Source of the DNA: Eledone cirrhosa
Lineage: Eukaryota
Direction of reading: 5' to 3'
Assembly: GCA_964016885.1 (NCBI GenBank)
Contig: OZ024741.1
Location: 321,718,001 to 321,782,000, forward strand
DNA: 64,000 nt
Under the pieces are notes generated by a model. It saw nothing but the letters and a program-made list of their open reading frames with translations, did not search any database and was not told the origin of the DNA. Shown piece after piece: positions 32,191 through 60,700 of the stretch. The position numbers and the translations under genes were made by a program. Position 1 is the stretch's first letter. Every line of letters starts with the position of its first letter.

Positions 32191-32272
32191 ACTTCCGGTA
32201 TAATTGCGGTTGTGCTGTTTAAGAAAATTTGACTGCGTGACTTCCTTTTTAGTATTGCCTCTCGGTTTAATT
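32191..32272 (+). promoter_or_regulatory. RPL7 promoter: ETS/GABP site, TCT/5'TOP start and non-coding exon 1
   Basis: ACTTCCGGT at 32191-32199, polypyrimidine CTTCCTTTTT at 32241-32250, and a GTAAGT donor at 32273. This is the typical ribosomal-protein promoter layout. Confidence 0.7.
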
Positions 32273-32624
32273 GTAAGTATATATCTTAACTCTATTTTAA
32301 ATCTGTTGTCATCTTTATCTATATAGGTAAAATTTCTTTCTAAACATTTACAAATGCATCCTATATCTTCAATTAATGTTATTGAACAGTTATTATTATA
32401 TATATCTCTTTATAAATTAAAAATTGACCGTTCAAAATTCATATCTGTATTACAACGTGGTGCTCCATGGTTGATTTTATTTCCATTAACACCATCGCCT
32501 AAAACCCGCTTTTGAACAATATTTGTAAATTATTCATGTCTTGATTTTATTTGATTTCTAAATTTTATAGTGTTTACATACTAATTGAATATTTTCTCTT
32601 TTGTTTTTCTATTTTCAGGACAAC

Positions 32625-35600
32625 ATGGTAGAGTAAGTATCTCTATTTTTTTTTTCATCATACGTAACTCTAACATATAATACCAGCTATTAATTTCTCA
32701 GTCTCTCTATCAATATATGCTTATTTTTAACAGCACACACACTTTATGTATTAAACCTTTAAACATATTTTGCCTCCAATCTAAAAAGAAAAAATCATTC
32801 GAAAAAGTGCTATCACTGATGTATTATTGAGAAGACACTTCCTTACACATAACTTTTCATGATAAAACTGGGACCCCTCTATATAAGACTAAAAAATCAT
32901 CCATTGTAGGCCATGTGTAAACTGTAAACATTACTTAATTATTTTTTATTTACGGGAATAATTTATAAAGGGCAATTTTGAAGCTTGTTATTAAATAGAA
33001 ATTCGTGTACAATTACGCGCACATGTTGCTATTAGATGATGGCGAGAAGAAATTCTCAGAATCATAAAGTGAAATGATGTTGGTGTCAATGATGTATATT
33101 CACGAAAATATTTTAATTATTTACCTTATTTGATCATTTAATATGTTTTGACCCACTGCAACCAAATGTCCAAACTGTCTTATTGGATAATATTAACCCG
33201 TATACAAAAGTGGGTTTCCATCACAATATATCTATCTCGAATAAATAAAATGAAAATATCTCGCTCGATTACCAGATTCATTTAATTTAACTCCGTTCAT
33301 ATAATACCTAGAAACACAAACACATATGCCGACCATGACTTTAATGTGTATATATATGGTGAATCGGACGGTATTTTCTTCATTCAAATTATATTGTCAA
33401 TAGTTATTGAAAGTGTCTTCAACGGTAACCACAGTATTTGAATTTGATCATGTGTGCTGAATGGACGCCCAAACAAGATGTATCGGTACTAACAGAATTA
33501 CTGTTTTACTGTTCCCACATGAGGATATACTTCAGTTTGTTTTAATAATTTTTTTTAAAATTAAAAATATAATTTTTACAGTTTATTAATTGCTTTGGTA
33601 ATCCTTATTTTAATATAGACACGTCCGGTAATATCCGCGGGAGCCATAAATAAATGTTTAGGAGAAAACCACTTAATTTTGGTTACAAGAATATATATTT
33701 TTCACTATATTATATCTTGTTTTGTAGTACACATCAATGCATGTGCAATTTGCACATTAGGGTTAAGTTTTCCTAGAAAAATAAACGTTGGAAGTGAGAT
33801 TAGTTGATAGCACGTGATAAAAACCCGAGGAAAAACATTTCTCACTGAATCATCATCATCATCATTTTACGTCCGCTTTTCCCTGCTTGCAAGGGTGGGA
33901 CGGGTCTTATTCAGCACAGCATCTCTCCACTCGTCACGGTCCCTCGTCATCTTCACCGTGAGCTTCAATGATCTGAGGTCTGTTCTCACCACCTCCGCCC
34001 ATGTTTTTCGTGGTCTACCTCTACCACGTCTTCCTTCAACTGGCATTTCCTGGCACTTCTTCACCCATCGGTCATCCTCCATGCGCATCACATGTCCATA
34101 CCACCTCAGTCTCCTCTCCCGTACACTACATTCTATCCCTCTCAGACACAGTTTCTCTCTCAACACATTTATGCTGGGTCGTTCACACACATTTACACTG
34201 CACATCCAACGGAGCATGCTTGCCTCATTTCTCTCCAGCCGTCGTATATCTTCTGCGGTAGCTGCCCATGTCTCACTACCATGCAGCATCGCGCTCCTCA
34301 CACAGGCATCATACAACCGGCCTTTCGTACGCAGGGAGAAACCCTTCTTCGTCAACAGAGGAAGCAGCTCCCTAAACTTCATCCAACCCGTCCTCATTCT
34401 AGATACTATGGCCTCGGAACACCCTCCTCCCATGCTAATCTGATCTCCTAGGTACCGGAAGCTATCCACCACTTCTATAGCGCCCTCTCGCATTTGAAAA
34501 ATGTGTCTATCAGTGCGACTTCTACTGTCTAATTTCCCTGTACATCTACTGCATACATATTTCTCCCTACCTGTTAGTTTGCCTGCTATCCCGCTACATC
34601 TCTTGTGTACCCAGGACCTACATTGTGTGCATTTTATAGAATTTATGCCAGTTCCTTTTCTGCATATCGAACATGGCCATTTCCCTGACGGAATCAGGGT
34701 TTTGTCCTCTTTTCTACTCATCAACACTTTTGTCTTAGCTAGATTTACTCTCAGTCCTCTTGCTTCCAACTGCTGTTTCCATAGCCGGAATTTATTCTCT
34801 AGCTCCTCTACTGATTCTGCCATAAGAGCCAGATCGTCAGCATAGAGAAGTTCCCATGGACAGCCAGTCTTAAACTCCTCTGTTATGGCTTGGAGGACTA
34901 TAATGAACAAGAGCGGGCTGAGGACCGAACCCTGATGTACTCCTACTTGTATCTGGAATTCCTCACTAAACTCCATTCCTACCCTGACTTTACTGAGAGT
35001 ACCTCTGTACAAAGTTTGCACTGTCCTTACAAGCCATTCCTCAACACCCAGCTTCCTTAGGGACCACCAGATGACAGATCGGGGTACCCTATCAAAGGCC
35101 TTCTCTAGGTCAACAAAGGCTAAGTATAGTGGCTTATTCTTCTCTAAGAACCTCTCTTGCATTTGTCTCACCAAGAAGAGGGCATCTGTTGTACTCTTCC
35201 CAGGCACAAAACCAAACTGCATCTCATCTAGTTTGACCCTTTCTCTAATTAGTTGTGCTAAAATCCTTTCATAACCTGATCTATCAGTTTTATACCCCTA
35301 TAATTGCTCCTCTCCAAAGCATCCCCTTTACCTTTGTAGCAATTTATGAGAATACTGCTGCACCAGTCTTTGGGTATGACACCACCATATATAGCCTGAT
35401 TGATGATGCGTGCAACCAGTTTAGTGCCTACGTCCCCTGATGCCTTCAGCATCTCAGCAACTATTCCCGATGGTCCGGCCGCCTTACCATTTTTCATTTC
35501 CCTAATCGCCTCTTGGACCCTATATTCGTCAATCTCAATAGCTGGTCCCTCTGTCGGATCTACCAAGGGTAATTTCTCTCTCTCCCATTCGTTCTCCACA

Positions 35601-38600: not shown

Positions 38601-41600
38601 GGAACTGGGGAATCGACAGGGGTGTTAAATAAATTTAGGAAGAGACTGACTTGCGGTCCGAATTATGACAAGTTAAAATCATTTAGTCGTCTATTTGTAC
38701 GCTTTAGTTACGTACACACATCTACACGTAAATACACAAACAGATATTGACAACAGAACCAAGGAGCTTGTGAAACACTATAGCGATATGTGTTGCATCC
38801 CATTAGGGTTTACCGGCTACGTAGCCTATTCGTAAATTTGCCGAATATATATTTTCCACTGTAATATATCTTGTTTTGGTCTATTTCAACTAAATTGTAT
38901 ATCTCAAAATGTGTATGGGTAGTTTTATGAGAAACAGCTGGGTTGGTCAGTACATGTGTATAGGGGAATGTGTACCAATATATGTAATTAACTATTGATT
39001 ACTAATATATTTAATATGCATTAACCACAAAGAATACAGTAAATGTAAAAATTATAAGACAAGGGTATGGACAAGGATATTAAATAAATAAATATATAAT
39101 ATAAAACATGAAAAATAGGGATAAAAAAAGTAAGTTGGTGTCCTAGATGTCTAATCATCATAATCTGTCAGTCCTGCCATTACTCAAGCAGGGCCCTTGA
39201 CTTCCAGATAAACTAGGGATTCTTCATATCCTGCGCTCTACCAACATTAGGAAGTTTTCATGTCTGGTATTGTTGAAGAGTTTTGTTTAGATTTACTACA
39301 GTTGAATGTCCTTCTAACTACTGACACAAAGACAAACCCCTTTGTCATGGTTTCGACAGCAAGTGCCTTACTTGCTGATAACCACATTACAGGGTGTACT
39401 GTGTGCATTTATCGCGGAACCAACACTAGAGGTTGTCATTGATTCAACTAAAACGGTGAGGTGAGGTATTGCTAAACGTGGAGAGATTTGACAGTATGGT
39501 GGGTGGGACTCCAACTGAGAGGTAGTTTGTATATAAATGTTTGTATTTTCAAAACAAATGTTCATTTAAATTTGGTTTGAAAGCTGATGCATTTAATGTT
39601 AACTTTCTAAATTTACTTTAAAATGTATATTTTCTCTTCTTTTTTTTTTTTAGGACAAAGAAAGAGTAAGTATTTTTATCATCTTTGTATTTTCTGCCTT
39701 TATCTAAATTGTTCATAATAGATCCTTTAGATCAATCTTCCTAAGAGAAGGAATATAAAATTCTGGGGAAGGAATCAAAATTGGGAAAGAATAGTGTACA
39801 ATGTGTATCAATGAAATACCAATATATCTGAATTATGTGAGGTCATGTATTAATAGCTCAATAAAAAAAAAAAAGTACAATCTTGATCTCCTTTGGGACC
39901 ATACAATTATTGAGGTTTGAAAAGCTTGATCATATTAATATGGTGTTTGGGTGAAAAATTACTAGATGATAATTCAAAATGTGGAGGAATGGGAAAGTTA
40001 TTGAGGAAACCTGGAATTGCTCGATCTTGGTCACTGAGAACCAATCCTGGTCTAGGTAGACACCTCTCCCCAGTGACTAGTACCAAAGTTTTAGTGGTTC
40101 ATTTTATGATCTGTGTTGCATAATACAATTGAAAGTAAATTTATGGACTACCCGAAAAAAGGTTCTCATTGCTTTAGATTAATTATAAATTATTTTATAC
40201 AATTTTGTGAAAGACTTGCTCAAATATTCAGCAACACGTTTTATATATATATATTTTCTCTTAATTTTTCAGCACTCCAAAGAAAACTGGAGAGTGAGTA
40301 TTTGTTTTATCTCATTAACCCTTTTATTACCTTATTTCTAATGAACGATCGGGGTGGGGGTGTGTGTGTGATTAAAGAAACCTACAATTGCAGGGAGGGA
40401 AATGTGACTTGGGTCACTGAGAACCGTTGGGTTTTATATGCAATACTATATAACCTGGTTTAGGTGAACTGCCAGTGACTGGTACCAAAATTTTGGAGGT
40501 CCTATTTTATGTCCTGTTTTGTTGTGTAATACAATTGAAAGTAAATTTATAACCACCTGAAAAAAGGTATCATGGCTTTAGATTAATTACAAATTACCAT
40601 ATATACTTATATATAAACTGAGAAATGTGACAAAAAAAAAATCTATGGTAAACGAGGTCAATATTTTGCTGATTTTCACCTTCAATTCTATGTAAATAAG
40701 GTGCTAAAATATCAAGTGATTATTTACCTATTGTACAGAATATGTATATCAAGTTCACTATAAAGCTTTAATTGGAGGTGAAATATATTTTTTCTATGGC
40801 TTTTGATGATTTGAAGGAATTAGCTGTCAGAAATTGTTTCTCGAGCTTTGGGCCACTCACCTAGCTTGAAGGTGAATATTACATCAGTTTCACTTTAAAG
40901 GTGAAATTTGTCTTATTGCTTTTGATGTATTGAATGAATACAGCCTTCAAAACGGTTGGAAATTCTTTTGTTAGTTAACTTATTAACCTATTATTAACCT
41001 ATTGGAGCAAGACAAGTGTAATTGTACCTGTACGATGTTAAGCCATTAGCATTTACATTATTCTATATTTACTAATGTATTTTCACAAACACTTTATTCC
41101 ACAAAATTATCTCACAATATCAAAGCTATGAGATTTTGATATTGATTTTGAGAACAATACCTAAGATAAGTATGAGCTGCTGGTTATGGTTGGTTTGCAA
41201 AGAAAGAGGTGAGAGAATTCTGGCAGGATATGGCCAGTTTAAATGCTAAAGGGTTAAATGGTTTCCAAGTTTTTTAAGACACACATTTAATTTGATGTCT
41301 ATACTAAATAGATATTTGTTACATTCATGAGATGGTGCTATTGTAGTCTGCTAAATAAAAAAAAAAGCAAAGTACTCCCAGCATGTGAGTGGTTGGAAGT
41401 AAACAAAAATTTGGGAAACTCATTGAAACTTTATCAAATTGAGGATGAAATGGTGAAACAAAAACTATATTCTAAATAACACTTAAACATTTTGAATAAA
41501 ACTTCATAAATATATTCTCCATTCATGAGAATTTCAAAACTGATCCTTCTAAACGTGTTAAGCTGTCTTGGGTTTAAATGTTTGAGTATATACAGTAACT

Positions 41601-44600
41601 TAGAATACAATCTTGTAAAAGACTTTTTGAAATGTTCAGTAACATGTTTATATTTTATTAATTTTTCAGCACTCCAAAGAAAACTGGAGAGTGAGTATTT
41701 GTTTATTGACGTTTTTATTGACCCTTTTATTACTTTATTTCTAATGAAAGACGGAGGGAGGGGTGATTAAGGTAACCTACAATTGCAGGGAGAGGAATGT
41801 GACCTGGGTCACTGAGAACCGTTGGGTTTTATATGCGATATTATATAACCTGGTTTGACTGGTACCAGTTTTAGTGGTCGCCTATTTTATGTCCTGTTTT
41901 GTTGTGTAATACAATTGAAAGTAAATTTATAACCACCTGAAAAAAGGTATCATGGCTTTAGATTAATTACAAATTGCCATATATACTTATATATAAGCTG
42001 AGAAATGTGTGACAAAAAAAAAAATCTATGGTAAACGAGATCAATATTTTGCTGATTTTCACCTTCAATTCTATGTAAATAAGGTGCTAAAATATCAAGT
42101 GATTATTTACCTATTGTACAGAATATGTATATCAAGTTCACTATAAAGCTTTAATTGGAGGTGAAATAAATTTTTTCTATGGTTTTTGATGATTTGAAGG
42201 AATTAGCTGTCAGAAATTGTTACTCAGTTAACAATGAGCTTTGGGTCACTCACCGTGTTTGGAGGTGAATTATACTCAAGAGGGTTATCAATTTTATTTG
42301 TTTGTAATTACTTTAATTTTCTGTGCAGACTTGAAATTTTGTCAGATGTTTAAATAACTATAATTTACAATTATATATTTTTACCTAATTTTTTTTGTTA
42401 AATTTGACTTTTATGGTCAGGTGAAATTAATTAACAGGTGTAAAAGTAATAACTTTATGGATAAACACAAAAATTTAAACTTTATCTGCCTTACTTGTTA
42501 GATTTGTTGCAAAAAAATCCAATAATGATCTAGATGCTGATTTCCATCAATTCTAGCAGTTTTCCGAACAGGTGAATTAATTAAAAATGCAGGTGTAATC
42601 AGTACAAGGTTTTAGTCTTTCTCTACATTCCAGGCAAATATTTTCATTGAAAAAAATGTATAAAACCTTTTCACCAGTCAAAATAATATTGGCAATGTAC
42701 TCTTACACAATGTACGGTGTAAAATTACGTAACAGAATGTTCCCAATATATAAGTTCATTAACAGGTGTGATGCAGGTGTGACACAGGTGAATGCAGGTG
42801 TTTTTGTATATGTGTTCTAATATATTTTTAAAATATTGTTTTCAATATTGTCAGACAATATTTCTATCGTGCCCAAAGCACCCTTTACATAATGGCACTT
42901 TGCAAAAGGAACACATAAATAGGGTTTGGATTGCGTAACCTTTAAGTTTTTCTCTTTTGCAAAGAGCACAATCGGCAAACCTTCCTCCTACCATCAATTC
43001 TCTCCACTTTGTGAAAATCAATATTTCCTTTGTGGACCACTGCTAATTTTGATTTTTTCCCAGCTTTGTGTTTGCGAGAAGTATATCCTCCACGTAGCTG
43101 GGATGCAATGTCCACGCGAAACTTCATATGACAGTAGTCCTTTGGTGGTGGCGGATCCTTGTGGCTTTTAGTAAATACAATAAAAGAATTCACAATGGTT
43201 AAATTCAGTAAAAACCACAAGATGTATCTCCACCATTTGTTTCTTGGGTAATAAGCACAGTACTGGTCAGATTTGTCAACCCCACCCATATATTTATTGT
43301 AGGAGAGGTTAACTAAAGGTCTACCCTCAGCCCCAACACCTGATTGTTGGTTAGAACTCAGGAACAAAATTTGTCTTTGAACACTGTGGCTAACATGTTC
43401 TCTTTTTGCATTTGGAGAATGTCCCCTCTGTTTTTCAGTTTCGCAACTTTTATTTCTTGGGGTAGTCCTTTCCGATTGCTCATTATTGTGCCGCAGGTGT
43501 ATGTATTTACAAGGGCAAGATCCTCTGCTAAAAGCACCGAAGAAAAAAACGGTCAAAATAAATGTCTATGTTGAAAGTGGAAGGGTTGAGTCAGCGACCA
43601 CACAACATCGTAACACAACCCATGTTTTCTCTCTCTGTTATGTTTTTTTCCTGTGTAAACATCAAAGTTTACACAGTATCCTGTGTCCGATTCACACAGT
43701 TTCCACACTTTGATGCCCCATTTGGTGGGTTTAGCTGGCATATACTGTCTGAAATGAACCCTACCCTTATACCCAATCATAGCTTCATCAACACTAAGAT
43801 TTTTTCCAGGTATATACACACTTTAAAATTTTTCTAACATTTCAATTAATGGTCGTACTTTGTACAGTGGGTCGTAATTTGATTCATTTCTACCAGGGGC
43901 ATTTGAAGTATCAACCAGATGCAAATACTGGTTTAATTTGATGAATCTCGTTTTTGCCATAATACTAGATATATAAGGGTTACCAAACCTTATATCAGTA
44001 CTCCAATAATTCCAGTCGTGGAAATTGTTTAATACCAAACATAATATTTATGGTAAAAAACGCTTTCATTTCGGCAGAATCTGTCGGACGCCATAACAGA
44101 TCGGGTTTTCCGATATTAGAAATCTGTTGTTGTGCATAGCGATTTGTATCTTCTGCCACAACTTCGAAGAAAGTTTGTGGTAAAAATAAAAAAAAATAAT
44201 CCAGTGCTTTAGCATCGGGTGGTAATGTGTGTTGTGGTCCAGTATTTTCAGTAAAATCCGAAAGATGTATCGGTGTGGTTTCTTTCAACCACGTTGGTGT
44301 CAGTTATATCTTCGCTTTCACTTTCAAAGTGACTATCATCATCATCATCAGATATATCAGAAATAAATATATCTGATTCGTTCGAAGATAAATCACAAGA
44401 TATTATCTTCTGTTTCTTTTTGATCTCGAATGTCGTCGGATGTAAAACCTTCAAATTCGTTGTCGCTACTTTCGGAAGCCATGTTATACTTTCAACGTTA
44501 AAAACACGTGTTATCGCCAGTTCTTTGACTATACTAAGAGTTAATTTTCGCGCGTAAGGGCTTTATCTCGCAGTAATCTCGAATTGATGAGATTTCAATG

Positions 44601-47600
44601 ATGTCGATGTTTATTTTTAGGAGATCTCCGTGTAGTATTAAATGTCGGTTTGAATAAATGAAAGGAGGCATAATCTTGTCGGTTTGAATGCTAAAGGGTT
44701 AAAGGTGAAATTTGTCTTTCCTATTGCTTTTGATGTATTGAGAATGAATACAGCCTTCAAAACGGTTGGAAATTGTTTTTTTAGTTACTTGGGGAACCTA
44801 TTAGAGCAAGACAAGTGTAATTGTACCTGTACAATGTTAAGCCATTAGCATTTACATTATTCTATATTTACTAATGTATTTTCACAATAAACACTTTATT
44901 CCACAAAATTTATCTCACACAATATCAAAGCTATGAGATTTTGATATTGATTTTGAGAACAATACCTAAAATAAGTATGAGCTCTGGTTATGGTTGGTTT
45001 GCAAAGAAAGAGGTGAGAGAATTCTGGCAGGATATGGCCAGTTTAAATGCTAAAGGGTTAAATGGTTTCCAAATTTTTTAAGGCATACATTTAATTTGAT
45101 GTCTATACTAAATAGATATTTGTTACATTCATGAGATGGTGCTATTGTAGTCTGCTAAATAAAAAAAAAAAAGCAAAGTACTCCCAGCATGTGAGTGGTT
45201 GGAAGTAAACAAAAATTTGGGAAACTCATTGAAATTTTATCAAATTGAGGATGAAATGGTGAAAAAATCATTACATTGTGAAACAAAAACTATATTCTAA
45301 ATAACGTAAACATTTTGAATATTAAAACTTCATAAATATATTCTCCATTCATGAGAATTTCAAAACTGCGCCTTCTAAATGTGTTAAGCTGTCTTGGCTT
45401 ATACATTGGGTTTAAATGTTTGAGTATATACAGTAACTTAGAATACAATCTTGTAAAAGACTTTTTGAAATGTTCAGTAACATGTTTATATTTTATTAAT
45501 TTTTCAGCACTCCAAAGAAAACTGGCGAGTGAGTATTTGTTTATTGACGTTTTTATTAACCCTTTTATTACCTTATTTCTAATGAAAGACTGGGGTGGGG
45601 TGGGGGAACCTACAATTGCAGGGAGGGGAGGAATCGCACAAGAAGAATGAGACCTGGGTCACTGAGAACTATTGGGTTTTATATACGATACTATACAACC
45701 TGTAATACAATTGAAAGTAAATTTATAACCATCTGAAAAAAAGGTATCATGGCTTTAGATTAATTACAAATTGCCATATATACTCAGATATAAGCTGGGA
45801 AATATGTGACAAAAAAAAAAATCTATGGTAAACGAGATCAATATTTTGCTGATTTTCACCTTCAATTCTATGTAAATAATAAGGTGCTAAAATATCAAGT
45901 GATTATTTACCTATTGTACAGAATATGTATATCACATTCACTATAAAGCTTGCATTGGAGGTGAAATATATTTTGTCTAAGGTTTTTGATGATTTGAAGG
46001 AATTAGCTGTCAGAAATTGTTTCTCCATTAACAATGAGCTTTGGGCCACTCACCAAGTTTGGAGATGAATATTACATCAGTTTCAATTTAACCCTTTAGT
46101 GTTCAAACCGGCTGCAATTATTTCCTCTTCATTTATTCAATCCAGCCGATAACAACCATACTAAAATATTTTTCTAAAAATAAACAATAGCGCCATCAAA
46201 ATCTCGTCAATTCGAGATTACTGCGAGATTTAGACCCTTACCACGAAATTAACATAGTGAAACAACACGTTTGTTTAACGTTGAAAGTAGAACAGATTTT
46301 TTTTGTGTATCAACATTGGGTTTAAATTTTGAGTATATACAGTAACTTAGAATACAATCTTGTAAAAGACTTTTTGAAATGTTCAGTAACATATGTTTAT
46401 GTTTTTTTTTTATTTTTCAGCACTCCAAAGAAAACTGGGGCGTGAGTATTTGTTTTATCTTGTGTTTATTGAAGTTCTTTAACCATATTTCTAATGAAGC
46501 CGCTGGGGGAAGAATTGGGGAAACCTGGAATTTTAAAGGAAGGAATGAAGACCACTGCTTTAGATTATTACACAACCTGGTTTAGGTAAACCCCCAGTGA
46601 CCGGTATGAAAGTTCTAGTGGTCCATTGTTAGTTTTGTCCTACTGTGTCACATAATACAACTGAAAGTAAATTATAATTTAATGACCACTTTTGGACTGT
46701 GTTCCACAGGACTTGTGATATATTCTGCATGTGTATGGGATTGATGGACAGCTTCTTGTTGCCTTGAAATCTCTATATGAATGCCCTAGTATTTGTTTTG
46801 AGATGGTGCTGAGTTGAAAACATTCAATTTGAGTGTCAGATTCCGCCAATGTGTATACTGTCACCTCTCCTATTCATAATGTTCATTGACGTGTGTGCAA
46901 CCAGGATGGAAGTGGTATCAAGACCGACAGGTGTAGAATCAGTCTGCTGGAATTTGCAAGCGTTACTATTTAACTCACCAGATGTGATCTCGGACATGCA
47001 CTCAAGAAGCATTTGGAGAAGTTTCAACTATTTTGGAGCCATTTTGATGAGGCAGGGGGCTAAAGTGAATGCACAGATTCCAGTAATGCGCTAGCTTCAG
47101 CATTCCGTCAGAAGGGAGGTAGGTGTAAAAGCCCAGCTCCCTATCTTCAAGTTGGTGTTAGTGTCACTTATCTATGGTCATGAATCTTGTGTAATGACTA
47201 AAAGAATACAAGAGCCGGAATTGGGTACCTCTGAAGGATCTTTGGAGTAATGTTATTCAATAGTGCATAAGCTTGGAGATCTAAGAGCTGCTACTCCGAA
47301 TTGAGATCTCCCAGCTCCAGACATGTAGGCAGAATACCTAAGGAAAGAAGCGCTGGGAAAAATCAACTGGCAGGAGACCCAGGGCTAGACTTGAATATAT
47401 CTAGCTGGATCAACTTGTGACAGTTGCTCCAAATGACCCCCCCCCCCCCCCCCCCCCAGGAATAAGTAGGTGACAAAAATGGATTACCTAAAAAAAAATG
47501 TCTCATTACTTTAGATTAATTACAAATTGTTTTATACAATTTTGTGAAAGACTTGTTGAAATATTCAGTCACATGTTATTTATATATATATATTTTTGAA

Positions 47601-50600
47601 TTTTTCAGTGCTCCAAAGAAAACTGGAGAGTGAGTATTTGTTTTATCTCATTTCTATTGAAGTTTTTTAACACTTTATTGGAAACAATCCAAAATTTGGA
47701 GTGATTTAGTAATATAACTAACTTTCTGATTAAGTTGTTTGGATTTTAATGAAGGTTCTTAAATAAATTTATGAACAGTTTTAAAATAAACTTAGTTGTG
47801 CTACTGTGTTGCATAATACAATTGAAAGTAAATTTATAATTTATGGATAAATTTATATAATCTTGTGAAAGAATTATTGAAATATTCAGCAACGTATGTT
47901 ATATATGTATATTTTTTCTTAATTTTTCAGCACTCCAAAGAAAACTGGAGAGTGAGTATTTGTTTTATCTCATGTTTATTGATTTTTTTAACCCTTTTAT
48001 ATTATCATATTTCTAATGAAAGATTGGGAGAGGAATTGAGACCTACAAGTGTAAGGAGAGGAATGTGATTTATGAATAATGTAACCCGGGTCACTGGGAA
48101 CCACTGCTTTAGATCTGATACTATATAACTTGGTTTAGGTGAACCACCAGTGACTAGTTTTAGTGGTCTCCAAAATTTGGAGGAATTTAGTAATAATATA
48201 ACTAGCTCGTGTTTAGAGCATAACTTAACAAACAATTCTATTGCTGAACCAAGGACAGTTTCAAGTGGTTTGTTATTAAATGGGTTAAATAAAACTTCAT
48301 TTGAAAGTACAATATTTATATATAGGAAATATTAACCTATAATTTCTCTTGTATACCTTTTATTTAATTAATGATTCGCACAGCACTCCAGTGTGTGATG
48401 AGATCATGCATATTGTAGGAATAAGAAAGCATCGTTAGTCATCATTTTATGCCAGTTTTCTGTGCTGGCATTGGTTAGATGGGTCATCACAGTGAGAGAA
48501 CAAGTTAGATAACTATCATGCTCATACATTTCATATTTTGGCATGGTTCTATGACTGGATGCCATTTCTAATGCTAACCACTTCTGTACTAGGTGATATT
48601 TTATTATGGCACTAGCACTACCATTTACAGAGTGTCCTGACTGCATTTTATCATGTCATGTCCTCAGCAGGCCTGAAGAGTCGTCCTCTCTGTATTATAT
48701 TGTCTCCATTGCCTGTTACTTTACAAAGGGTACAGATTATATTTTAATATTACTGATTTATGATTATAAAAATATGTCTACATCATGTTCATGTATGAGT
48801 AAATGCAAAGTGTCCCTGGAAGTGGAAAAAATAACATGGTGTTAACAATATAAAGTATTTTAAATAAATGTTTCCCTCCAGTATGTAATAATTACTATGT
48901 TAATATTCCAATTAATGTTATATTATGAAACTAATGAAAATATCTTTTTTCTTTTCTAGGAAAGTTGTAAAGAAAGTTGTAAAGTAAGTATATTTGAAAT
49001 CTTTATAACACATTCTTTTAAAATCTTAGAATATTTTAATATAGTTTGAGATAATACCATTCATCATAATTTTAGAAAGAATTCTTTATTATAGAATATT
49101 TCTGGATACCATTAGTTATAAAAGCAGCTTTATGCTTAGTTCTGAGACCAAATTGTTAATGAAATTGTGTAGGCAGAAACTGTATGGAGGTTCATCAGTA
49201 ACTGGAATTCAGAGGTGCAACTTGGTTAGACACTGTCATGCTGGTTCCAAGTGTGTATGTCTGGAATTCTAAGGCATTTTGCTCAAATTTACATTATTAC
49301 AGTGAAGTCATTAAGTTTTAATGTGATGCAGCCATAATATTGTTTTGTGCTTCTCAATATCTTGCTAATTTGGTTTCATGTGGTACAGGACGTTAAATTA
49401 AAAGATTTCAGTCTTTTTTGTTCACTTTAATATTTTAAACATTTATTTCAACTGTAAGATGTCGATGATTAAACAATATTTCATGTTCTTTCAGGAAACA
49501 AGTACCGAAGAAGCCGTGAGTATAAATATCTATAATGAAACTAGTGCAGTGTATTGGAAGTATCAATGTTTTTCTTAACTGATTGTTTACTTCATGAAGT
49601 TTTTTTTAGTATTTGCACACCAGTGATAGATGTTAGGTTTATTTACGTTATGATGTTTCATTAAATATTTATATGTAAGTCAGTGGTCCAGCATGGAACG
49701 AAAGAATACATAATTTGAAGCAATTTTCATTCTAAACTCTGCGGCAACACAGCTACTGTTTTGATGTCATACACACGTGTTGCTCTGCAGTAAATTTGAT
49801 TTTAAAATAATTTTGCTCAAAGCATTGAGTGTGCCATTTAAAGGTTGGGAACAATTAGAGTTTGTTTGGTATGAAGCTATCATAACAGCTCTATTTACGT
49901 ATCTATTTGGCACTCATTGAAGGAGCATCTTAGTAAATCGTCTTTTACTTTTTCACTTGAGAACACCTAATCCATTATTTTCTTAAAAATTATACTTTCA
50001 AATCAATTGATTTTTCTCTATTTCAATATCGCTCTTGTATAATTAAGTGGTAAAATCTTAAGTTATAGTTATTATAGGTTAGTGTACCATTTAGTAGAAT
50101 TACAAATATTAGCACAGACAACACTTCTGCACATGTTCTTCACAAAATTACCTGATCCCAACCCTCAAAGTCTTTGTTTATCAACTTTATTGTCCATTGT
50201 TGATAGTTTCAATAGATTCTTAAATTCCAACTGATCTGTGTGGTCAGTTCCAACATGTGTATTAAAGTGTCTTTACATATAATATAATGCTGCAGTGACT
50301 TCATCAAGGAAGGGTCTGTATTCGAACTGCTTGCTTGGTGGATAAACTTGCACAACCCACAGACGTATCTTTCAGCCTCAGCTTCAAGAGGCAAATCCTC
50401 CCTCCCAATGGTGTCCAGTCCATATCACATTCTGACAGTTGGGTGCTTGTGAGTATCTCCACTCCAGTCATTTCTGGTGCTATACAGTGTACAAGTATAC
50501 AGTGCCAGGGCCACAGAGCTTTGTTCAGGAAACCCTGACTATATCCAGCCAGTAGCACCTAGCCTCCATTAGTCCTCTTTACCTGCAAGGGTTGTGATGT

Positions 50601-53600
50601 TCCAGATTCCAATTGTCATGGTTTGTTCTCTTTAGGCTCTGGATCTGCCAGTTTTTACTGGTACATTCAAAATCCTGCAAAGACTAGGCTTTTTAGAGGC
50701 TCTTGACTTGCCTTGTCATATCTACATCACTGGGTTGTGAGAGGTTTCTTGGGAGCTACAGGTATTATCCATTGCTCCATCTCCCCTAGTAGTTGGTCTG
50801 GGGTTACTTATTCGTCTGGCAGCTACCCACTTATATTGTAACTAACCATCATATCTGGTGGTCGTATCACATTCACCTGTGAATTGTCTAGCAGAACAGC
50901 TTTGCCGAGAAGGATAGTTAGTTCTCCAGTCATCCACAGATGATTTCAAATCATAATATTTTAACTTCTCATGTGATATATTTTCAATTTTTCAGGGTTG
51001 TAAAGAAAACTGCAGAGTAAGTATTATTTCGTTATTATTAAGTGTTGCTGTATTTTATCGAAAATGTGTTTTAACCCTTTAGTGTTCAAATCGTCCGCAA
51101 TTATTTCCCCTTCATTTGTTCAAACTGCCTGAAACTGGCCGATAACATCCAGACTAAAATATTGTTAAAAAAATAAACAATACCATCATCAAAATCTCGT
51201 CAATTCGAGATTATTGCGAGATTAGGCCCTTACTGCGAAAATTAACACTTAAAACGTGTTTTTTTAACGTTGAAAGTAGAAAAGATTTTTTGTGTATCAC
51301 ATGGCTTGTGAAAGTAGCGATACCGACTTTGAAGGTTTTACACACGACAGCATTCAGAATAAACAAGAAACACGATAATATTAGTGATTTATCTTCAAAT
51401 GAATCTGATGTTTATATTTCTGAAATTTCGTCTGACGATGATTGTTTTGAAAGTGAAAACGGAGATCTCCAGGACGCCATTTAAAATATTACAGCAACGT
51501 GGTTGAAAAATACCACACCAATATATGTTCCCGATTTTATTCAAAATACGGTCCGCAACACACATTAGCTCCCGATGCTAAAGCACTGGATTATTTCTTT
51601 TTGCTTTTACCGCAAACTTTCTCTGAAGTTGTGGCAGAAGAGATTAATTGATATGCCCAACAACAGATTTCAAATCGAGGAAAACCCGATCTGTTTGGCG
51701 ACCGACTGTTGCTGCGGAAATGCAAACCTTTTTTACCATAAATATATTCGGTATAAAACAATTTCCAAGACTGGAATTACTGGAACACTGATATAAGGGT
51801 TAGTGATCCTTATATATCAAGTATTATGCCAAAAAACAACATATTTCAAAACAATCATCGTCGGACGAAATTTCTGAAATATAAACATCAGATTCATTTG
51901 AAGATAAATCACTATAATATTATCGTTTGTTTCTTGTTTATTCTGAATGTCGCCATGTGTAAAACCTTCAAAGTTGGTATCGCTACTTTCATAAGCCATG
52001 TTGATAAAAAGAAAAAATTGTTGTACTTTCAAAGTTAAAAAAACACTTGTTGTTTTAAGTTGTTTCACTATATTAAGTGTTAATTTTCGCAGTAAGGGCC
52101 TAATCTCGAATTGACGAGATTTTGATGATGGTTTGTTTATTTTTAGAACGATTTTTTAGTGTGGGTGTTATCGGGTGGTTTGAACAAATGAAGGGGAAAT
52201 AATTTCGGGCGGTTTGAACACTAAAGGGTTAAACATCTGCTGACAAAATTTCAAGACTGCACATAGAAAATTACAATTGATAACCCTCTTGAGTACGATT
52301 AACTGAAAATAATGTGAACAGATAAACATGACATCTGACAAATTAATGTGAATGCTAAAGGGTTAATCAAATTATTTAAAACTTTTTGATACCTAAAACT
52401 GACTTTGATTCTATGTTACAAAGCTGATATTTTAACAACTAAAGGTTCTTACATAAATCAAAGTTTGAGTTATTGTTTCAAAACTACTCTAATTGGAAGC
52501 AAATTTAGTGATATTTAGATTTTGTTTCAATCTCATCATATATGGCTTAGTTGGTATGTTAAACTGTTTTAACCTTTTAGCATTTACATTACTCTGTAAT
52601 TTACTATTGTATTTTCACAGTACACACTTACCTCACATAATATTGAATCTACAAGATTTTGATATTTACTTAACATAAGTATGAGCAGCCAGTTATGGTT
52701 GGTTTGAACTGAAAGAAGTGAGAGAATTCTGGCCAGATATGGTTGGTTTAAATGCTGAAGGGTTAAAGTATCTTCTTTTCATTTCTGAAGCCAGCGGAGC
52801 ATTGAGTTGCTGAGCATGCTTTATTTCATGTTGCTTTTCATAATAGGACTGGCCCCTTATCATGAAAAAGAAAAACACCCAGAGAAACCTTTTATGAGAT
52901 GTAATCTCATAGGTCAGCTGAACCTGCATGGGTTTAGGACTTCAAAGATTTGTATACAAGATTTTCAATAGAATTGAGTATGTATAAAACATGCATTTTA
53001 GGAAAATAACATAGTTTGGTATTATGAACAAAGCTAGATTCAGTGTATTGACAACTCATTTGGTCGGATGCCATGCTTTGGCGCATGGAGATACGGGCTT
53101 TGCCTTTCATCCTTATAGGTCGATAAAATAAAGTACCAGTAATGTACTGGGTAATTGCTGGCCTTCTGCCAAAAGTAGAAACAATTATTTTAACTGAAAT
53201 TTAAGAGATAAATATATATTGGTAATAATTTCACAATTACTGTATTTCATATTTACAAAACAATAGATTTGGTGGTGCTTCAGTAGTAGATATTGCATTT
53301 TCAGTTATAAAATATCTAATTAACATTTCTTTACTTTTTCAGGAAGAAGACTGTTAAGAAAGCGTAAGTAGTTTTTAAATTAAAATAGTACTATTAAAAA
53401 TAGATATGGAAAGTATTTTTATGTTTACATTAGAATTTAATGTTTTCAATGTAATATTGGAAGGTGGAATATTAAGATAATTTTTAAAACAAGTAATGAA
53501 TATATATATATATATACAAGAAATTATGCTTAGATAAGCAGTATTATATATATATGTAAAGGCATGTGGTTTAGTGGTTAAAGAGTTGATTTGCAACTGT

Positions 53601-54218
53601 GAGGTTGCGAATTCAATTCTCAGACTGGGTGATGCATTGTCCTTGAGCAAGACTCTTTATTTCATGTTCTTTCTGTCAGAAGATAGTATCAGCAAAGGAA
53701 ACATTGTTTCCTTGGTTCGATTTGACGGGGCCCACCCCACTCAGTAAGCAAATGAAGTCTGGGATCTTGTTGATCTAAGCATATTTTTTTCTATATATAT
53801 TCAATTATCTATATAAATAATTTATTTATATACATGTGTATATGGAAGTGCATGGGTTATTGATTAGGGTGTTTGGCTCACAATTGTAAGGCGGTGAATT
53901 CAATTCCCAGCTATGCAACACACTTTATTTCACATTGTTCCGGTTCATTCAGTTGTATCTGTATTGTCACACTGAATCTGAGAATTACATTAGTTCATGA
54001 GCACAGCTGTTCAAACATCTAAAGCATTTGTTAGAACTGATAGGATTATACGTGTGTGTGTGTATATATATGTTTGTAAAAGGTTAACAAATAACAACAC
54101 AATTGGTACACTATATAGAAGGGATATATTCGGTTAACGCTTGATATAACAGGAAGAGGGTCTTAACGTTTCGGACGCTAGTCCTTCATCAGAAGAAAGA
54201 ATGAGAAATAAGATAGAT

Positions 54219-54249
<31 letters not shown>

Positions 54250-54505
54250 AGCCAACATATATACAGGTTATTTACATTAGTTGGACATGGGTACAAAAGA
54301 TATTAGCAATATGTCATAAGCGTTTAAAAAAAGCATGTGTAACTAGTCTTGCTCATGCTGTATGTGTAGAAAGACAAACTACCTCTCTCTCTATATATAT
54401 ATATTCACACATTCATTTTCTTGCAATATAGCTGACATTTTAGCAAAAAAAGTTGATTTTTTTTGCTAAGCTTCTCTAAAATTAATAAATGAATGTACTT
54501 TTATT

Positions 54506-54538
<33 letters not shown>

Positions 54539-54631
54539 GGTGTCCCAAAAGAATGTATACACAGTTTGATTACCTATGTAGGCAATATTTATTAGAATGC
54601 TGTTGAAGTGTGTATACACTTTGAGACGCCC

Positions 54632-54703
<72 letters not shown>

Positions 54704-57700
54704 AAATGATTTTAATTGAAGTATATATTTTTCAATGTTAGTATTTTATTTTTTCAGGCCTCCCAAGAAGATTGTAGAGTGAGTATTATCCTGCCTTCAT
54801 ATATGGTGAAATAATCTTTTTATCAATATTGAATTTCATTATATCTGAACATAATATACCTTTCCATACAAAGAGTATGGAAAGGATATCTTGCTACAAT
54901 CAGTTGCAGTTATGAATATCACTAAAATACAATATTTAGTTTATATATTGCTGCTTACAATGCACAGGGATATAGATATAAATTATTCATGTTGTATTGT
55001 AAAAGATTTTATTTGAAATGTTGATAAATATAGTTTTTTTAATTTTTCAGGGCAGTCAAGAAGACCGAAAAGTGAGTATTATCTTTTCTTCATATTGAGG
55101 CATAAATATAACAATAACTGATTATATTTTATTACTATTGATATTCTCTCTCTCTAATGTCTGTGTCTGTTATAAAGAATAATAATCATTTTACATCTGC
55201 TTTCCATGCTGGCATGTGTTGGATGGATTGTCACACTCTGAGACAAGGCAAATATCTAAGCACCCTCATCTCACTCATGTTACATAATTTGTATGGCTTC
55301 TATAACTGGATCCCATTCTTAATGCCAACACTATAGCCTCCGGTCTCCACAAATATATTGTTTAATCAATATTAGTGTGATTTATTTGCATTGTTTCATT
55401 TCATACTTTGCATTATATGAGATCAATGAAACATCTACTTCCATTAGAAAGGCACACCATTGCAATGTATTTTTAACAATATATTTGCTGGCTGCAGGGG
55501 GATGAATCTGTTTTAGGTGCTTGGAGGGATGATCTAATTTTTTTATCTTTTGCGAAATATTTTCTCATCAAATTAACAGTGCATAGTATATATGTATTAT
55601 GCCGTTAATTATGGTATCTATGAGGAGGTGCTGAAAAGTTTCTGGCTTTGGGTAAAAGAAAATATAGGAGAATCAGTTATGATTTTATTCAACATATTCC
55701 CCATACATTCACACACTTATTGCAGCAGTCCTACCTCCCCTATAAAGATAAACAACTCAATCCTTTTGTGGTACCCTTAAAGCCAGGAACTTTTCAGCAC
55801 CCTCTTGTATATTATCTTTATAAATTTTTCAATATTTAATTTTTAATTTTCAGGACTGTAAAGAAAACTGTTGTGTGAGTATTTTGTTTTATCTTATATT
55901 CTAAAGTTAAGCCTAATCAAACATTCCACCCTGTCCTTTTTAGGGGCTGTGTTTAAGAAGACATTATCCAATATCTTTTTTCATTAAGGTGGTAGAAATA
56001 GTTTAAATACATTGGTGGTTATTACTAGCAGTTGAGGTGATCACAAAAAGGCTTTCTCTCGTGTTCATATAGAGTGGAATGAAAAAAATCAGTTCTAAAT
56101 TCTATCATATATACGTGAATATAAGCCAACCCCTATTTTATGTCTAAGAAATGGGCAAAAGTATTAGCTGAGACAGCTAATCAACATATGTTCAGATAGC
56201 ATAGTTTTGAAATTCTTATCTTAAATTTGGTATTTGTGCCAACCCTATGATCATGGATCTTGGGTAATGACTGAAAGAATATGATTGCGTATATAATTGG
56301 CTGAAATGGAGTTAACTTGAAGATCAGGGAGCTGCTACTTCTCCAAATTGAGAGATCACAGCTTTATGGGCATGTAGTTAAAATGTCTCAGGAAAGAATT
56401 GCTGGACAGATTTTACAGGCAAAACCAACTGGCACGTGACCCACGGGTACACCCAAGCAAAGTGGTTGGATAACATCCATGTGCTTGGCTGGTCTCGCTT
56501 TGGGATTCAGCTAGATCAATTGGAAACTATTACTTATGACAGCCCCTGCTGGAAGGAGTGTCTGAGGACTCTGCTCCCATGACCATCTCGGGAATAAGTG
56601 GCTGAAGAAGTGGAATATACTTACATTTTCATATTTAAAATGTTGTAAGTGTTGTATAGCTTTTGTTTAAGAACTCCATTATGTGATTATTTTTTTGCCA
56701 ATTTCCTACTTGTTTAAAGGCCATATTCATTCGAAACAAAAAACAGGAAATGCATATTTCATGTTGAAAGTGAAGCCGGTGTAACTTCAAAGTGAAAATA
56801 TTTTACCACCTGATTTCAGCAGGATTTGAAGTTAGTGTAAATCAACAAAATATTGATTTCGAGTATAGGCTGACCCCATTTTTTTTTTTTTTTTTCTTTT
56901 ACCTTCCCATATTTCTTGGCTTGTATATGAGTATATACAGTAAGGCTTTTAGCATTTACATTACTCTATATTTACTATTGTATTTTCATAGTAAACACTT
57001 TATTTCTCATAATATTGAATCTGTGATTTAAAAAAATTATTTTGAGAACAATGTCTTAACACAAGTATGAGTGGTTGGTTTGAACAGAAAGGTGAGAGAA
57101 TTCTGGCCGGTTTAAATGGTAAAGGGTTAAAATCAAGCTTATATATAGCCTATATTTCTAAATCATATTTCTTTCAAGTCAATGATTTAAGTCCCAAAAT
57201 AATATTTTTTTTTGTTTTTAGTTAACTTCTTGACCATTCTAATGTTATTAGTAACACACATACAATTGCTGCAAACTGGTTTATGTTGCCTGTCTTGTTC
57301 CTTTCAAGTGTGCCCCTACATGACCCAACCTTTTGATCACACTTTAATTTCTACTTCTACTGACATTAGAAATATTAGTATCTATTTAGTATTATATTAA
57401 AACTGAAATATTCTCTCAGTAATTGCTGCAGATGATTACTAATTATGTCTTAATTAAAAATATTAACATGAATATTTATTTTTAATTTTTCAGGACTGGA
57501 AAGATATCTATGAAAGAGTAAGTATTTGTTTTATCTTGTTGACAAATGAAATAGGAGGATAATAATGGTAGTGGGTGATTATATATAATGTTGAAATAAT
57601 GTATGTAATACTTTATATAGCATGATATTCATTGTTGATTTAAGTTTGTTACAATTTGTAAATTCCATTAAAATATTCTTTTTTAGATTCCATCATTCTC

Positions 57701-60700
57701 TGTGTGGAAATTAATAAAATATTTTTTGGTTTTCAGTGAGAAAAAAATCCGTAAAGTCCCTGAAAGTCTCTTGAAGAAAAGGAAAACCAGGAAAGCTCAG
57801 GCTCTCAAACGAAAGGCTACTGTTCTTCGGAGAAAAGTTGTAAGTATTTGATATATTTTGTGAGTTTATTAATGAGTTGCTTTGTCATCTAACCATTTTT
57901 ATCAAATTGGATATTGATATTAAAATATCAACCCACCCAAAAAATCACCTATTATAGCTTTAAAATTGGACAGAAGTCTTATCTGGTAGATAATATCAGA
58001 TTTCAGTAGTTTAACCTTTAGCGTTCAAAGCGACAAAAACCGACAAAATTATGTCCCCTTTCATTTATTCAAACCGACAAAAACCGACATTTAATACCAC
58101 ACGGAGATTTCCTTCTAAAAATAAACATTGACATCATCGAAATCTCGTCAATTCGAGATTACTGCGAGATAAAGCCCTTACGCGCGAAAATTAACTCTTA
58201 GTCTAGTTAAAGAACTTGCGATAACACGCGTTTTTAACGTTGAAAGTGTAACATGGCTTCCGAAAGTAGCGACAACGAATTTGAAGGTTTTACGTCCGAC
58301 GACATTCGAGATCAAAAAGAAACAGAAGATAATATCAGTGATTTATCTTCAAACGAATCAGATATATTTATTTCTGATATATCTGATAATGATGATAGTT
58401 ACTTTGAAAGTGAAAGAGAAGATTTGACTGACACCATTGAAAAAATAGCAACGTGGTTGAAAGAAACATTCTATACATGTTTCGGATTTTACTGAAAATA
58501 TTGGACCACAACACACATTACCACCCGATGCTAAAGCACTGGATTATTATTTTTTATTTTTACCACAATCTTTCTTCGAAGTTGTGGCAAATCGCTATGC
58601 ACAACAACAAATTTCTAATATCGGAAAACCCGATCGGTTATGTTGTCCGACAGATTCTGCCGAAATGAAAGCGTTTTTTACCATAAATATTATTTTTGGT
58701 ATTAAACAATTTCCACGACTGTGGAATTATTGGAGTACTGATATAAGGTTTGGTGACCCTTATATATCTAGTATTATGGCAAAAACGAGATTCATTAAAT
58801 TAAACCAGTATTTGCATCTGGTTGATACTTCAAATGCCCCTGGTAGAAATGAATCAAATTACGACCCACTGTACAAAGTACGACCATTAATTGAAATATT
58901 GTCAGAAAAATTTAAAAGTGTGTATAAACTTATATATTGGGAACTTTCTATTACGTAATTTTACACTGTACATTTACAGAGTACATTGCCAATATTATTT
59001 TGACCGGTGAAAAGGTTTTATACATTTTTTTCAATGAAAATATTTGCCTGGAATGTAGAGAAAGACTAAAACCGTGTACTGATTACACCTGCATTTTTAA
59101 TTAATTCACCTGTTCAGAAAACTGCTAGAATTGATGGAAATCAGCATCTAGGTCATTATTGGATTTTTTTGCAACAAATCTAACAGATAAGGCAGATAAA
59201 GTTTAAATTTTTGTGTTTATCCATAAAGTTATTACTTTTACACCTGTTAATTAATTTCACTTGCCCATAAAAGTCAAATTTAACAAAAAAAATCAGGTAA
59301 AAATATATAATTGTAAATTATAGTTATTTAAACATCTACTGACAAAATTTCAAGTCTGCACATAGAAAATTAAAGTAATTACAAACAAATAAAATTGATA
59401 ACCCTCTTGAGTATAATTAAGTGAAAATAATGCGAATAGATGAACATGACATTTGACAATTCAATGTGAATGCTAAAGGGTTAATTAAGTTTTTGTAGTT
59501 TGAAATAAAAGAATCCTATTGTACCTGAGGGTGTCCATAGGAACAAAAAAGCTGGTGTATAAAATTTGTTTATAAAGTTAAATGATTATTACTATATGAA
59601 TGTGTAGCAACATAAGGAGTTTTCAGTTTATTTACGCTCATCCCTACTACCAAGTGTAATGGTTATTATGGAAAGAAAATACCGTATTTGTAGCATATCA
59701 TTTATTAAAAAAATTTATACTAAACTACTTCCACTAGTGCAATGGGTTGGCATTTTCTTGTCCAAACTATTTTCAAATGGAAAATGTAATTTACAGTTAA
59801 CACCTTTGTAAATTTAACTGCCCTCCTATGAGGTTCTAACAAGTAGTTTCTTGTGTATTTTTTATAAGTGCCAAGTCTAACGATCAAATCCCTAGGCCAC
59901 TGGCCATCACTTTATTTTATTATAGTTTAACATTTTTTCCCATTTCCTAACAACTTGAGATAGTGGAGTGATCCAGTAACAAACTCTTTCTTTTCAGCTG
60001 CGTAAGAAGAAGAAGATTAGCATTTTCCATCGAGCTGAGAAATATGTGAAAGAGTACCGCATGCAGGCACGTGAGGAAATCCGGCTGCGACGTGAAGCTC
60101 GCAAAGCTGGAAATTACTATGTTCCTAGTGGTGCTAAACTGGCTTTCATCATGAGAATCAGAGGGTATGTTACTATATAATAATTTTCTCTATTTTTTAA
60201 CATTTTGAATACCAACCCACTTAAAACTGTCATAGATTTGTGAAACAAAATCATTTTAAAGGATTTCTAGTTAAATTGAAACCTAACATAATTTGGCATG
60301 CACATTTTTTAACGTTGCTTTATAAATGCCATCTTATAATAAATTATAATGAATCCCTCGAATACTTCATTAAGTAATTGAATTACAGTATATTTCATTA
60401 AAATGGTGGTCATGAAAGGGCTAATCATTTTGTTCTATCATTTGTAATGTCACTCTGGACATGGTTTTATATATGAAAACTGCCAAAATTGAAACTTATA
60501 CATCTTGTGTATCAATCTAAATCTGTTGAAAGGTTCTATGAGCTTAATATTTTCTCTACTGTTGACAGATTGAGGAGCCAAAACTATAATGAAATAATGT
60601 CTCTATATTTACCCATAACATCTTTACTAGTGTACAGATTTCATGTTTGCACAGAACATGAACATTTGCAGTAATATAGTAAAGAATTTAATTCTTAATG

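What the first reader, a model, noticed from the sequence alone, without database searches (positions are those of the whole stretch)
40273..47951. TPKK repeats give the L7 tail histone-H1-like CDK-site/DNA-binding character
Seen: five TPKK motifs and one APKK in six adjacent microexons, followed by K/V/P/A/T-rich units. Known: S/T-P-x-K is the CDK consensus, and SPKK/TPKK motifs in histone H1 tails bind AT-rich minor grooves. H1-like extensions are described for Drosophila RpL22/RpL23a and mosquito RpS6. Inference: each exon adds one phosphorylatable nucleic-acid-binding unit, possibly contacting rRNA expansion segments or chromatin, or aiding nucleolar targeting.
Basis: partly seen in the sequence, partly recalled or inferred. 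Interest (0 to 1): 0.7.

Follow-up and report, generated by a model that had tools for sequence, protein, structure and literature searches.

The report
Microexon-built lysine tail on octopus uL30
This octopod's ribosomal protein L7 (uL30) gene adds a 113-residue lysine-rich tail through 15 tiny exons, six of them recent copies of one TPKK exon; the tail likely grips the enlarged surface rRNA beside it and is likely loosened by phosphorylation at a T-P-K site kept in other cephalopods, whereas the five-fold repeat is seen only in this species.

Summary
Observation confirmed. Six 21-nt exons (five TPKK, one APKK) lie in the RpL7/uL30 gene of an octopod, the only copy found. They read in frame in a 348-aa ORF. 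One run's contigs splice a TPKK exon through eight downstream microexons into the core; three DNA-like runs lack these joints.

The six exons are recent tandem duplicates of one exon plus its intron flanks, so they are one motif origin, not five. Their coding sequence looks constrained: 2 replacement changes against about 10 expected. One of the two removes a Thr.

The tail is cephalopod-wide (46-113 aa, against 8-10 in 11 of 11 bivalves and gastropods). One N-proximal T-P-K is kept in 4 of 5 lineages; the five-fold array is not.

The tail is K/T/V-rich, with 4% Ala and 11% acidic residues, so it resembles histone H1 only by composition. uL30's N-terminus sits on rRNA segment ES7L, here about 617 nt and 62% GC. 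Best reading: a likely disordered, polycationic rRNA-binding tail with a likely proline-directed phospho-site. AT-minor-groove DNA binding is unsupported. Phosphorylation, binding and translation are untested.

The parts
32241..32272 (+). Predicted non-coding exon 1 with a pyrimidine-rich (TCT/5'TOP-like) start
   Evidence: Sequence and GT donor at 32273; start site inferred, no RNA test
32619..32632 (+). Exon 2 with start codon (ATG 32625), ends in phase 2
   Evidence: N-terminus MVE matches relatives MVAE/MVEE; its joints were not seen in RNA
39654..39665 (+). 12-nt microexon E3 (T-K-K)
   Evidence: not RNA-tested (the poly-T acceptor was skipped by the mapper)
40273..40293 (+). TPKK microexon E4 (identical to E5 and E9)
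   Evidence: an E4/E5/E9-type exon is joined to E10 at depth 2392 in X4
41670..41690 (+). TPKK microexon E5
   Evidence: the E4 and E5 blocks align at 88% over 657 nt; own inclusion not shown
45508..45528 (+). TPKK microexon E6 (one synonymous change)
   Evidence: upstream flank 100% identical to E5; inclusion not shown in RNA
46421..46441 (+). TPKK microexon E7
   Evidence: Joined through E8 to E9 in one X4 contig of depth 11.5
47609..47629 (+). APKK microexon E8 (Thr lost)
   Evidence: The 21 letters between 46441 and 47931 in that contig match E8 at 20 of 21
47931..47951 (+). TPKK microexon E9
48960..57517 (+). Eight older K/V-rich microexons E10-E17: 48960-48983, 49495-49515, 50996-51016, 53343-53363, 54758-54778, 55051-55071, 55854-55874, 57494-57517
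   Evidence: All joined exactly at GT..AG in X4 contigs (depth 2392-2877), 0 in X1-X3
57737..63247 (+). uL30 core exons: 57737-57839, 59998-60164, 60847-60984, 62072-62181, 63039-63247 (stop)
   Evidence: one genomic match for the last exon

Best explanation
The gene is this octopod's RpL7/uL30, and 15 frame-preserving microexons give it a 113-residue, net +28 N-terminal tail that is likely disordered, likely binds the enlarged rRNA segment ES7L beside it by charge, and is likely weakened by a proline-directed kinase (CDK1 or MAPK type) at an ancestral T-P-K site. Shown: the gene model, splicing of most tail exons, the origin of the six TPKK/APKK exons by tandem copying of one exon with its intron flanks, the presence of the tail across the cephalopod clade, and the ES7L size. 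Inferred: because every exon is a multiple of 3 nt between phase-2 introns, any copy or skip keeps the frame. The tail can therefore grow and turn over while holding a similar charge density (0.17-0.28 per residue). In this lineage the copied exon happened to carry the T-P-K site, which raised one site to five. Full phosphorylation would cancel the distal block's charge (+7 to about -3) but leave the proximal K/V block (+20), so it would act as a partial dimmer, not an off switch.
For: Clean ORF and exact splice joints. One genomic match for the last exon. Duplication seen in the intron flanks. Across the six copies: 2 replacement changes vs 10-11 expected from intron flanks (P 0.001-0.002) and 3 silent vs 3.2-3.5 expected. 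Tails of 46-113 aa in the 100/100-supported cephalopod clade vs 8-10 aa in 11 of 11 bivalves and gastropods. T-P-K in 4 of 5 lineages, all within the first 30 residues (P about 0.004 at any position). 28S is 5,114 nt and ES7L about 617 nt, against about 210 in yeast, 340 in fly and 860 in human; uL30 extensions stabilise ES7L (PMC10281867, section 12). CDK1 phosphorylates ribosomal RPL12 (PMC7054999, passages).
Against: There are no protein-level data. Human ES7L is larger, yet human uL30 is 248 aa with no such tail, so a large ES7L does not need one. 28S was not measured in any tail-less mollusc. The Argonauta model has no T-P (it may miss microexons; untested). One unnamed relative has TPKAK, not the strict consensus. 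One of the two replacement changes among the copies removes the Thr. The selection test rests on 5 changes and could reflect splicing enhancers, gene conversion or misaligned flanks. The direct silent-to-replacement ratio is not significant (P=0.09).
Confidence: 0.5

Rival explanations
1. One reading: the five TPKK units were selected as a multisite CDK switch, each adding a phosphorylatable nucleic-acid-binding unit.
For: The copies are under apparent purifying selection, with P-K-K invariant in 6 of 6. Five phosphates would neutralise the block, as proposed for sea-urchin SPKK arrays (PMC2504289, passages).
Against: Relatives hold 0-2 strict sites. The neighbouring 7-aa repeats in O. sinensis read ASKK or APKK, not TPKK. 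One copy here lost the Thr. Each unit nets +1. Constraint covers the whole unit, not just T-P.
Confidence: 0.18
2. The tail is a tolerated, nearly neutral low-complexity appendage. Only its frame and overall charge are constrained, and T-P-K persists by chance.
For: Length ranges from 46 to 113 aa and the sequence barely aligns between lineages. O. sinensis has five distinct isoform proteins differing by 7-21 residues. Yeast ribosomes tolerate the fly L23a extension (PMC1934995, abstract and passages).
Against: The tail is kept across the whole cephalopod clade, T-P-K is retained, and there is a deficit of replacement changes.
Confidence: 0.2
3. The tail serves an extraribosomal, H1-like role on chromatin or DNA through the SPKK-type AT minor-groove mode.
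For: The H1/H5-like domain of Drosophila RpL22 binds DNA in EMSA and one-hybrid assays (PMC8872304, passages). The motif matches.
Against: No linker-histone family hit in 5 of 5 orthologs. Ala is 4% and acidic residues 11%. The same fly study saw RpL22 only in nucleolus and cytoplasm, not on chromosomes. The gene appears single-copy, so most of the protein is likely ribosome-bound.
Confidence: 0.07
4. The main role is in biogenesis: nuclear or nucleolar targeting, or partitioning of free uL30, released at mitosis by phosphorylation.
For: Lys-rich tracts act as import and nucleolar signals (general knowledge). N-terminal extensions of uL23 carry the NLS (PMC1934995, passage).
Against: Other molluscs import uL30 with an 8-10-aa N-terminus.
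Confidence: 0.05

Closest known systems
H1-like extensions of insect ribosomal proteins (Drosophila eL22/RpL22 and uL23/RpL23a; mosquito eS6 and uL23)
   Same: Long, lineage-specific, Lys-rich low-complexity extension on a conserved ribosomal core; unalignable between lineages; co-evolution with an rRNA expansion segment suggested (PMC1934995, passage).
   Different: Different host protein (uL30). K/T/V-rich rather than Ala/Lys/Pro-rich in this species (Octopus orthologs are more PAK-like, 0.60-0.63). Built from 15 microexons. In the octopus structure eL22 is only 136 aa and uL23 201 aa, against 299 and 277 in the fly.
Octopus sinensis / O. vulgaris / O. bimaculoides RpL7 (RefSeq isoforms X1-X7; PDB 9EHO chain F)
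   Same: Orthologs (core 92% identical to the closest) with 87-108-aa tails, one TPKK, and isoforms differing by blocks of 7, 8 and 14 residues, which fits 21- and 24-nt exons.
   Different: One TPKK (O. bimaculoides also has TPLK) against five here. Their exon structure was not examined. The 9EHO preprint text does not mention the tail.
Histone H1 C-terminal domain and sea-urchin sperm H1/H2B SPKK repeats
   Same: (S/T)-P-X-K CDK consensus sites in a Lys-rich tail.
   Different: No globular H1 domain; acidic residues inside each repeat; lower charge per unit; the neighbour is GC-rich rRNA, not linker DNA.
Schistosome micro-exon genes (MEGs) (recalled, no call)
   Same: Runs of short symmetric exons that allow length variation without frameshift.
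   Different: MEGs encode secreted proteins; here the architecture sits on a core ribosomal protein.

Membership tests
Eukaryotic uL30 / RpL7 | Ribosomal_L30_N plus Ribosomal_L30 domains | tested here: met
   PF08079 (E 4e-17) and PF00327 (E 2e-13)
Eukaryotic uL30 / RpL7 | Orthology; intact expressed locus rather than paralog or retrocopy | tested here: met
   Groups with octopod RpL7 at 100/99; 1 genomic match among 3 candidates; spliced contigs only in X4
H1-like ribosomal-protein extensions | Long, lineage-specific, strongly basic terminal extension | tested here: met
   113 aa, net +28, K 35%; 8-10 aa in other molluscs
H1-like ribosomal-protein extensions | Ala/Lys/Pro-rich composition like the H1 tail | tested here: inconclusive
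   A+K+P is 0.48 here (Ala 4%) and 0.60-0.63 in Octopus orthologs; no H1 sequence was compared directly
H1-like ribosomal-protein extensions | DNA, chromatin or PARP binding by the extension | not testable with these tools
   Needs EMSA, ChIP or pull-down
Linker histone H1 | Winged-helix globular domain | tested here: not met
   No linker-histone Pfam hit at E<=1 in 5 of 5 orthologs; the window's own joined tail was not scanned, but it is low-complexity throughout
CDK substrate (S/T-P-x-K/R) | Full consensus motif present | tested here: met
   Five sites at residues 8, 15, 22, 29 and 43
CDK substrate (S/T-P-x-K/R) | Site conserved in relatives | tested here: inconclusive
   T-P-K in 4 of 5 lineages, strict consensus in 3 of 5, the five-fold array in 1 of 5
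CDK substrate (S/T-P-x-K/R) | Phosphorylated in vivo, dependent on CDK | not testable with these tools
   No phosphoproteome is available here
SPKK minor-groove binders | Preference for AT-rich DNA minor groove | not testable with these tools
   Indirect evidence is against: the adjacent ES7L is 62% GC RNA

The most novel reading that the evidence does not exclude
Cephalopods evolved a modular ribosome-surface tail on uL30 together with a human-sized 28S rRNA. Its length and its number of proline-directed phospho-sites are set by microexon duplication over evolution and by microexon skipping between tissues. This would be a splicing- and kinase-tuned source of ribosome heterogeneity from a single essential gene.
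Probability: 0.2. Interest if true: 0.75.

Novelty: new variant of a known kind. Interest (0 to 1): 0.45.

Why it matters
What lineage-specific basic tails on ribosomal proteins do is an open question, so far studied mainly in insects. This case adds a different protein (uL30), a visible mechanism of tail growth (tandem duplication of frame-preserving microexons), a retained candidate kinase site, and an enlarged rRNA neighbour. A public octopus ribosome map (PDB 9EHO) and octopus RNA-seq make it testable at once. The tail is already present, unremarked, in database proteins, and the five-fold TPKK array is so far seen in one species. That limits the surprise.

Tried and rejected
Assembly artefact: rejected, because the copies have diverged flanks (pairwise about 20%) and three of the six carry distinct exon letters; E7 and E8 occur in a spliced contig.
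Transposon-borne cassette: rejected; there are only 6 genomic matches, all in this gene.
Other reading frames: both contain stops.
Processed retrocopy as the source of the joints: 0 depth in X1-X3 and one genomic match.
The joint 40293-to-48960 is not evidence of skipping, because E4, E5 and E9 are identical. Joints E2-E3, E3-E4, E4-E5, E5-E6 and E6-E7 were not seen; tables were truncated and repeats collapse in contigs, so this is no evidence of absence.
No RNA holder was listed on record; X4 is judged RNA-like from its joints alone.
A structure prediction of alignment A1 was queued but had not finished, so disorder is inferred from composition only.
Microexon architecture in uL23: not found in 30 kb; its extension lies in one 238-nt exon.
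Earlier-findings look-ups returned nothing.
Paper searches for this tail listed no paper describing it, judged from titles and abstract openings; subscription journals are not covered.
Full report
What is there. They belong to a 31-kb gene on the + strand. Joining 21 coding exons from ATG 32625 gives a stop-free 348-aa protein. Its last five exons are the uL30/RpL7 core (Pfam hits in 3 of 5 exons; top homologs are Octopus and Argonauta RpL7). The first 113 residues come mainly from 15 microexons of 12-24 nt, each a multiple of three and all between phase-2 introns. The other two frames of this block contain stops. The last exon has one match in the 3.0-Gb genome (3 candidates scored). The TPKK cassette has six matches, all here. 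A tree of 32 core sequences places the gene with octopods (100/99), inside a 100/100 clade that also holds three unnamed environmental proteins, which I infer to be other cephalopods.

Splicing. No listed run is on record as RNA. Of four runs laid, X1-X3 cover introns. X4 has contigs of depth 2392-2877 that cross nine predicted introns exactly at GT..AG, from a TPKK exon through E10-E17 into the first core exon; these joints have depth 0 in X1-X3 (15 joint rows shown, 2345 not shown). The TPKK exon in that chain could be E4, E5 or E9, which are identical. A second lay found one contig (depth 11.5) joining the end of E7 to E9 through 21 letters that match E8 at 20 positions. So E7, E8 and E9 can be spliced in series. 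Inclusion of E3, E4, E5 and E6 individually was not shown. All of this comes from one sample of one study, and translation was not tested.

Origin of the array. The six exons share intron flanks: the E4 and E5 blocks align at 88% over 657 nt, and E5 and E6 have identical upstream flanks over the span compared. The flanks of the other microexons are at shuffle level against E9. The array is therefore one exon copied with its flanks. Five S/T-P-x-K motifs are rare in a residue shuffle (P=0.0001), but one motif in the collapsed tail is not (P=0.23). Reading the six copies by hand (listing) gives 3 silent and 2 replacement changes. The flank divergence predicts 3.2-3.5 silent and 10-11 replacement changes (P 0.001-0.002 in three flank sizes). 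That suggests constraint on the peptide. The numbers are small, the direct silent-to-replacement test is not significant (P=0.09), and splicing enhancers or gene conversion could contribute. One replacement is Thr-to-Ala, which removes a site.

Relatives. Residues before the conserved core anchor: O. sinensis 87-108 (five isoform proteins), O. vulgaris 101, O. bimaculoides 91 (partial), Argonauta 46, two unnamed clade members 60 and 106, and 8-10 in 11 of 11 bivalves and gastropods. Among 142 of 147 proteins with the anchor, the median is 14; some insects reach 30-40. Strict S/T-P-x-K/R counts are 5 here, 1 in O. sinensis and O. vulgaris, 2 in O. bimaculoides, 0 in Argonauta, and 1 and 0 in the unnamed pair (the latter has TPKAK). 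T-P-K itself occurs in 4 of 5 lineages, always within the first 30 residues. Shuffling gives P about 0.004 at any position. Nine other tripeptides are shared as widely, nearly all made of the tails' commonest residues, and five lineages is a small sample. Charge per residue stays at 0.17-0.28 while the sequence turns over. The O. sinensis isoforms differ by blocks of 7, 8 and 14 residues, the sizes expected from 21- and 24-nt exons. I did not see that gene's exon structure.

Composition. The tail is K 35%, T 16%, V 12%, P 9%, A 4% and D+E 11%. The TPKK block nets +7 over 42 residues and the proximal K/V block +20 over 65. Five phosphates would bring the first to about -3 and the whole tail from +28 to +18. 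In histone H1, three phosphates lowered DNA affinity about three-fold, with stronger effects expected where most basic residues sit in SPKK repeats (PMC2504289, passages). No linker-histone family was hit in five orthologs. The H1-tail composition I compare against (Lys/Ala/Pro-rich, few acidic residues) is partly recalled.

Neighbourhood on the ribosome. ES7L branches are stabilised by eukaryote-specific extensions of uL4 and uL30, and ES7L is about 210 nt in yeast, 340 in Drosophila and 860 in human (PMC10281867, section 12 and passages). In this genome the 28S match is 5,114 nt in 1 of 4 scored copies; the other three are about 6.3 kb, and the one compared directly carries a 1.2-kb insertion. 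ES7L is about 617 nt and 62% GC, with ends set by the Rfam alignment and the closing helix. Against a simple co-evolution story, human uL30 is 248 aa, and no tail-less mollusc's 28S was measured. An octopus ribosome structure exists (PDB 9EHO; its chain F carries the 343-aa O. sinensis sequence). The tool does not show which residues are modelled. In its preprint (PMC13321053; first sixth read, whole main text and one supplement file term-searched) uL30, RPL7 and 'extension' do not occur.

Mechanism. Shown: the gene, the exon architecture, splicing of most tail exons, the duplication origin, the clade distribution and the ES7L size. Inferred: disorder, electrostatic binding to ES7L or nearby rRNA, and phosphorylation of T-P-K by a proline-directed kinase. 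CDK1 is known to act on RPL12 and other ribosomal proteins; RPL7 is not mentioned in that paper (PMC7054999, passages). I put this reading at 0.5, a near-neutral appendage at 0.2, a selected five-site switch at 0.18, a chromatin role at 0.07 and a targeting role at 0.05. For the chromatin role, the fly RpL22 extension binds DNA in vitro but was seen only in nucleolus and cytoplasm (PMC8872304, passages).

Comparison and verdict. The gene is a member of uL30. The tail works like the H1-like extensions of insect eL22, uL23 and eS6 (PMC1934995 and PMC11764897, passages) but is not an H1 and is only loosely H1-like in composition. What looks new is the host protein, the microexon construction and the expansion of a retained T-P-K site. 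Six paper searches listed no description of it. This is a new variant of a known kind, interest 0.45.

Noticed in passing
L002-L005 (G000:C12 and C25 rDNA): 28S rRNA is about 5.1 kb, close to human size and 1.7 kb longer than the 3,401-position Rfam model; ES7L is about 617 nt.
   Followed up: partly
L003 about 5201-6438; similar length excess in L004 and L005: Three of four scored 28S copies carry an insertion of about 1.23 kb. In L003 it lies at the TTAAGG/TAGC site that I recall as the R2 retrotransposon target; its longest stop-free frame is 137 aa, so it is likely a non-autonomous or truncated R2-type element.
   Followed up: partly
G000:C4 near 328319369 (L011): uL23/RpL23a has a K-rich N-terminal extension inside one 238-nt exon with internal AKKAVLKG-like repeats; the octopus uL23 chain in 9EHO is 201 aa against 156 in human.
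   Followed up: partly
window 42268-44700 and 58037-59480: Two related piggyBac-like DNA transposon remnants (Pfam DDE_Tnp_1_7) in opposite orientation in RpL7 introns, one between E5 and E6; a shorter relative lies at 51070-52233.
   Followed up: partly
window 33849-36931 (- strand): LINE with endonuclease and reverse transcriptase ORFs in intron 2, with a PHD-finger match within the RT ORF; a second copy at about 20150-22430 is 90-93% identical.
   Followed up: partly
window 11142-13823 (- strand): GC-rich retroelement with a reverse transcriptase match (E 6e-9), outside the gene.
   Followed up: no
proteins P0127, P0095, P0152-P0154: Insect uL30 proteins (locusts, true bugs) have 35-47-aa Ala/Lys/Pro-rich N-tails that also carry S/T-P motifs (TPEK, SPAK, SPKK), an apparent convergence on the same protein.
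   Followed up: no
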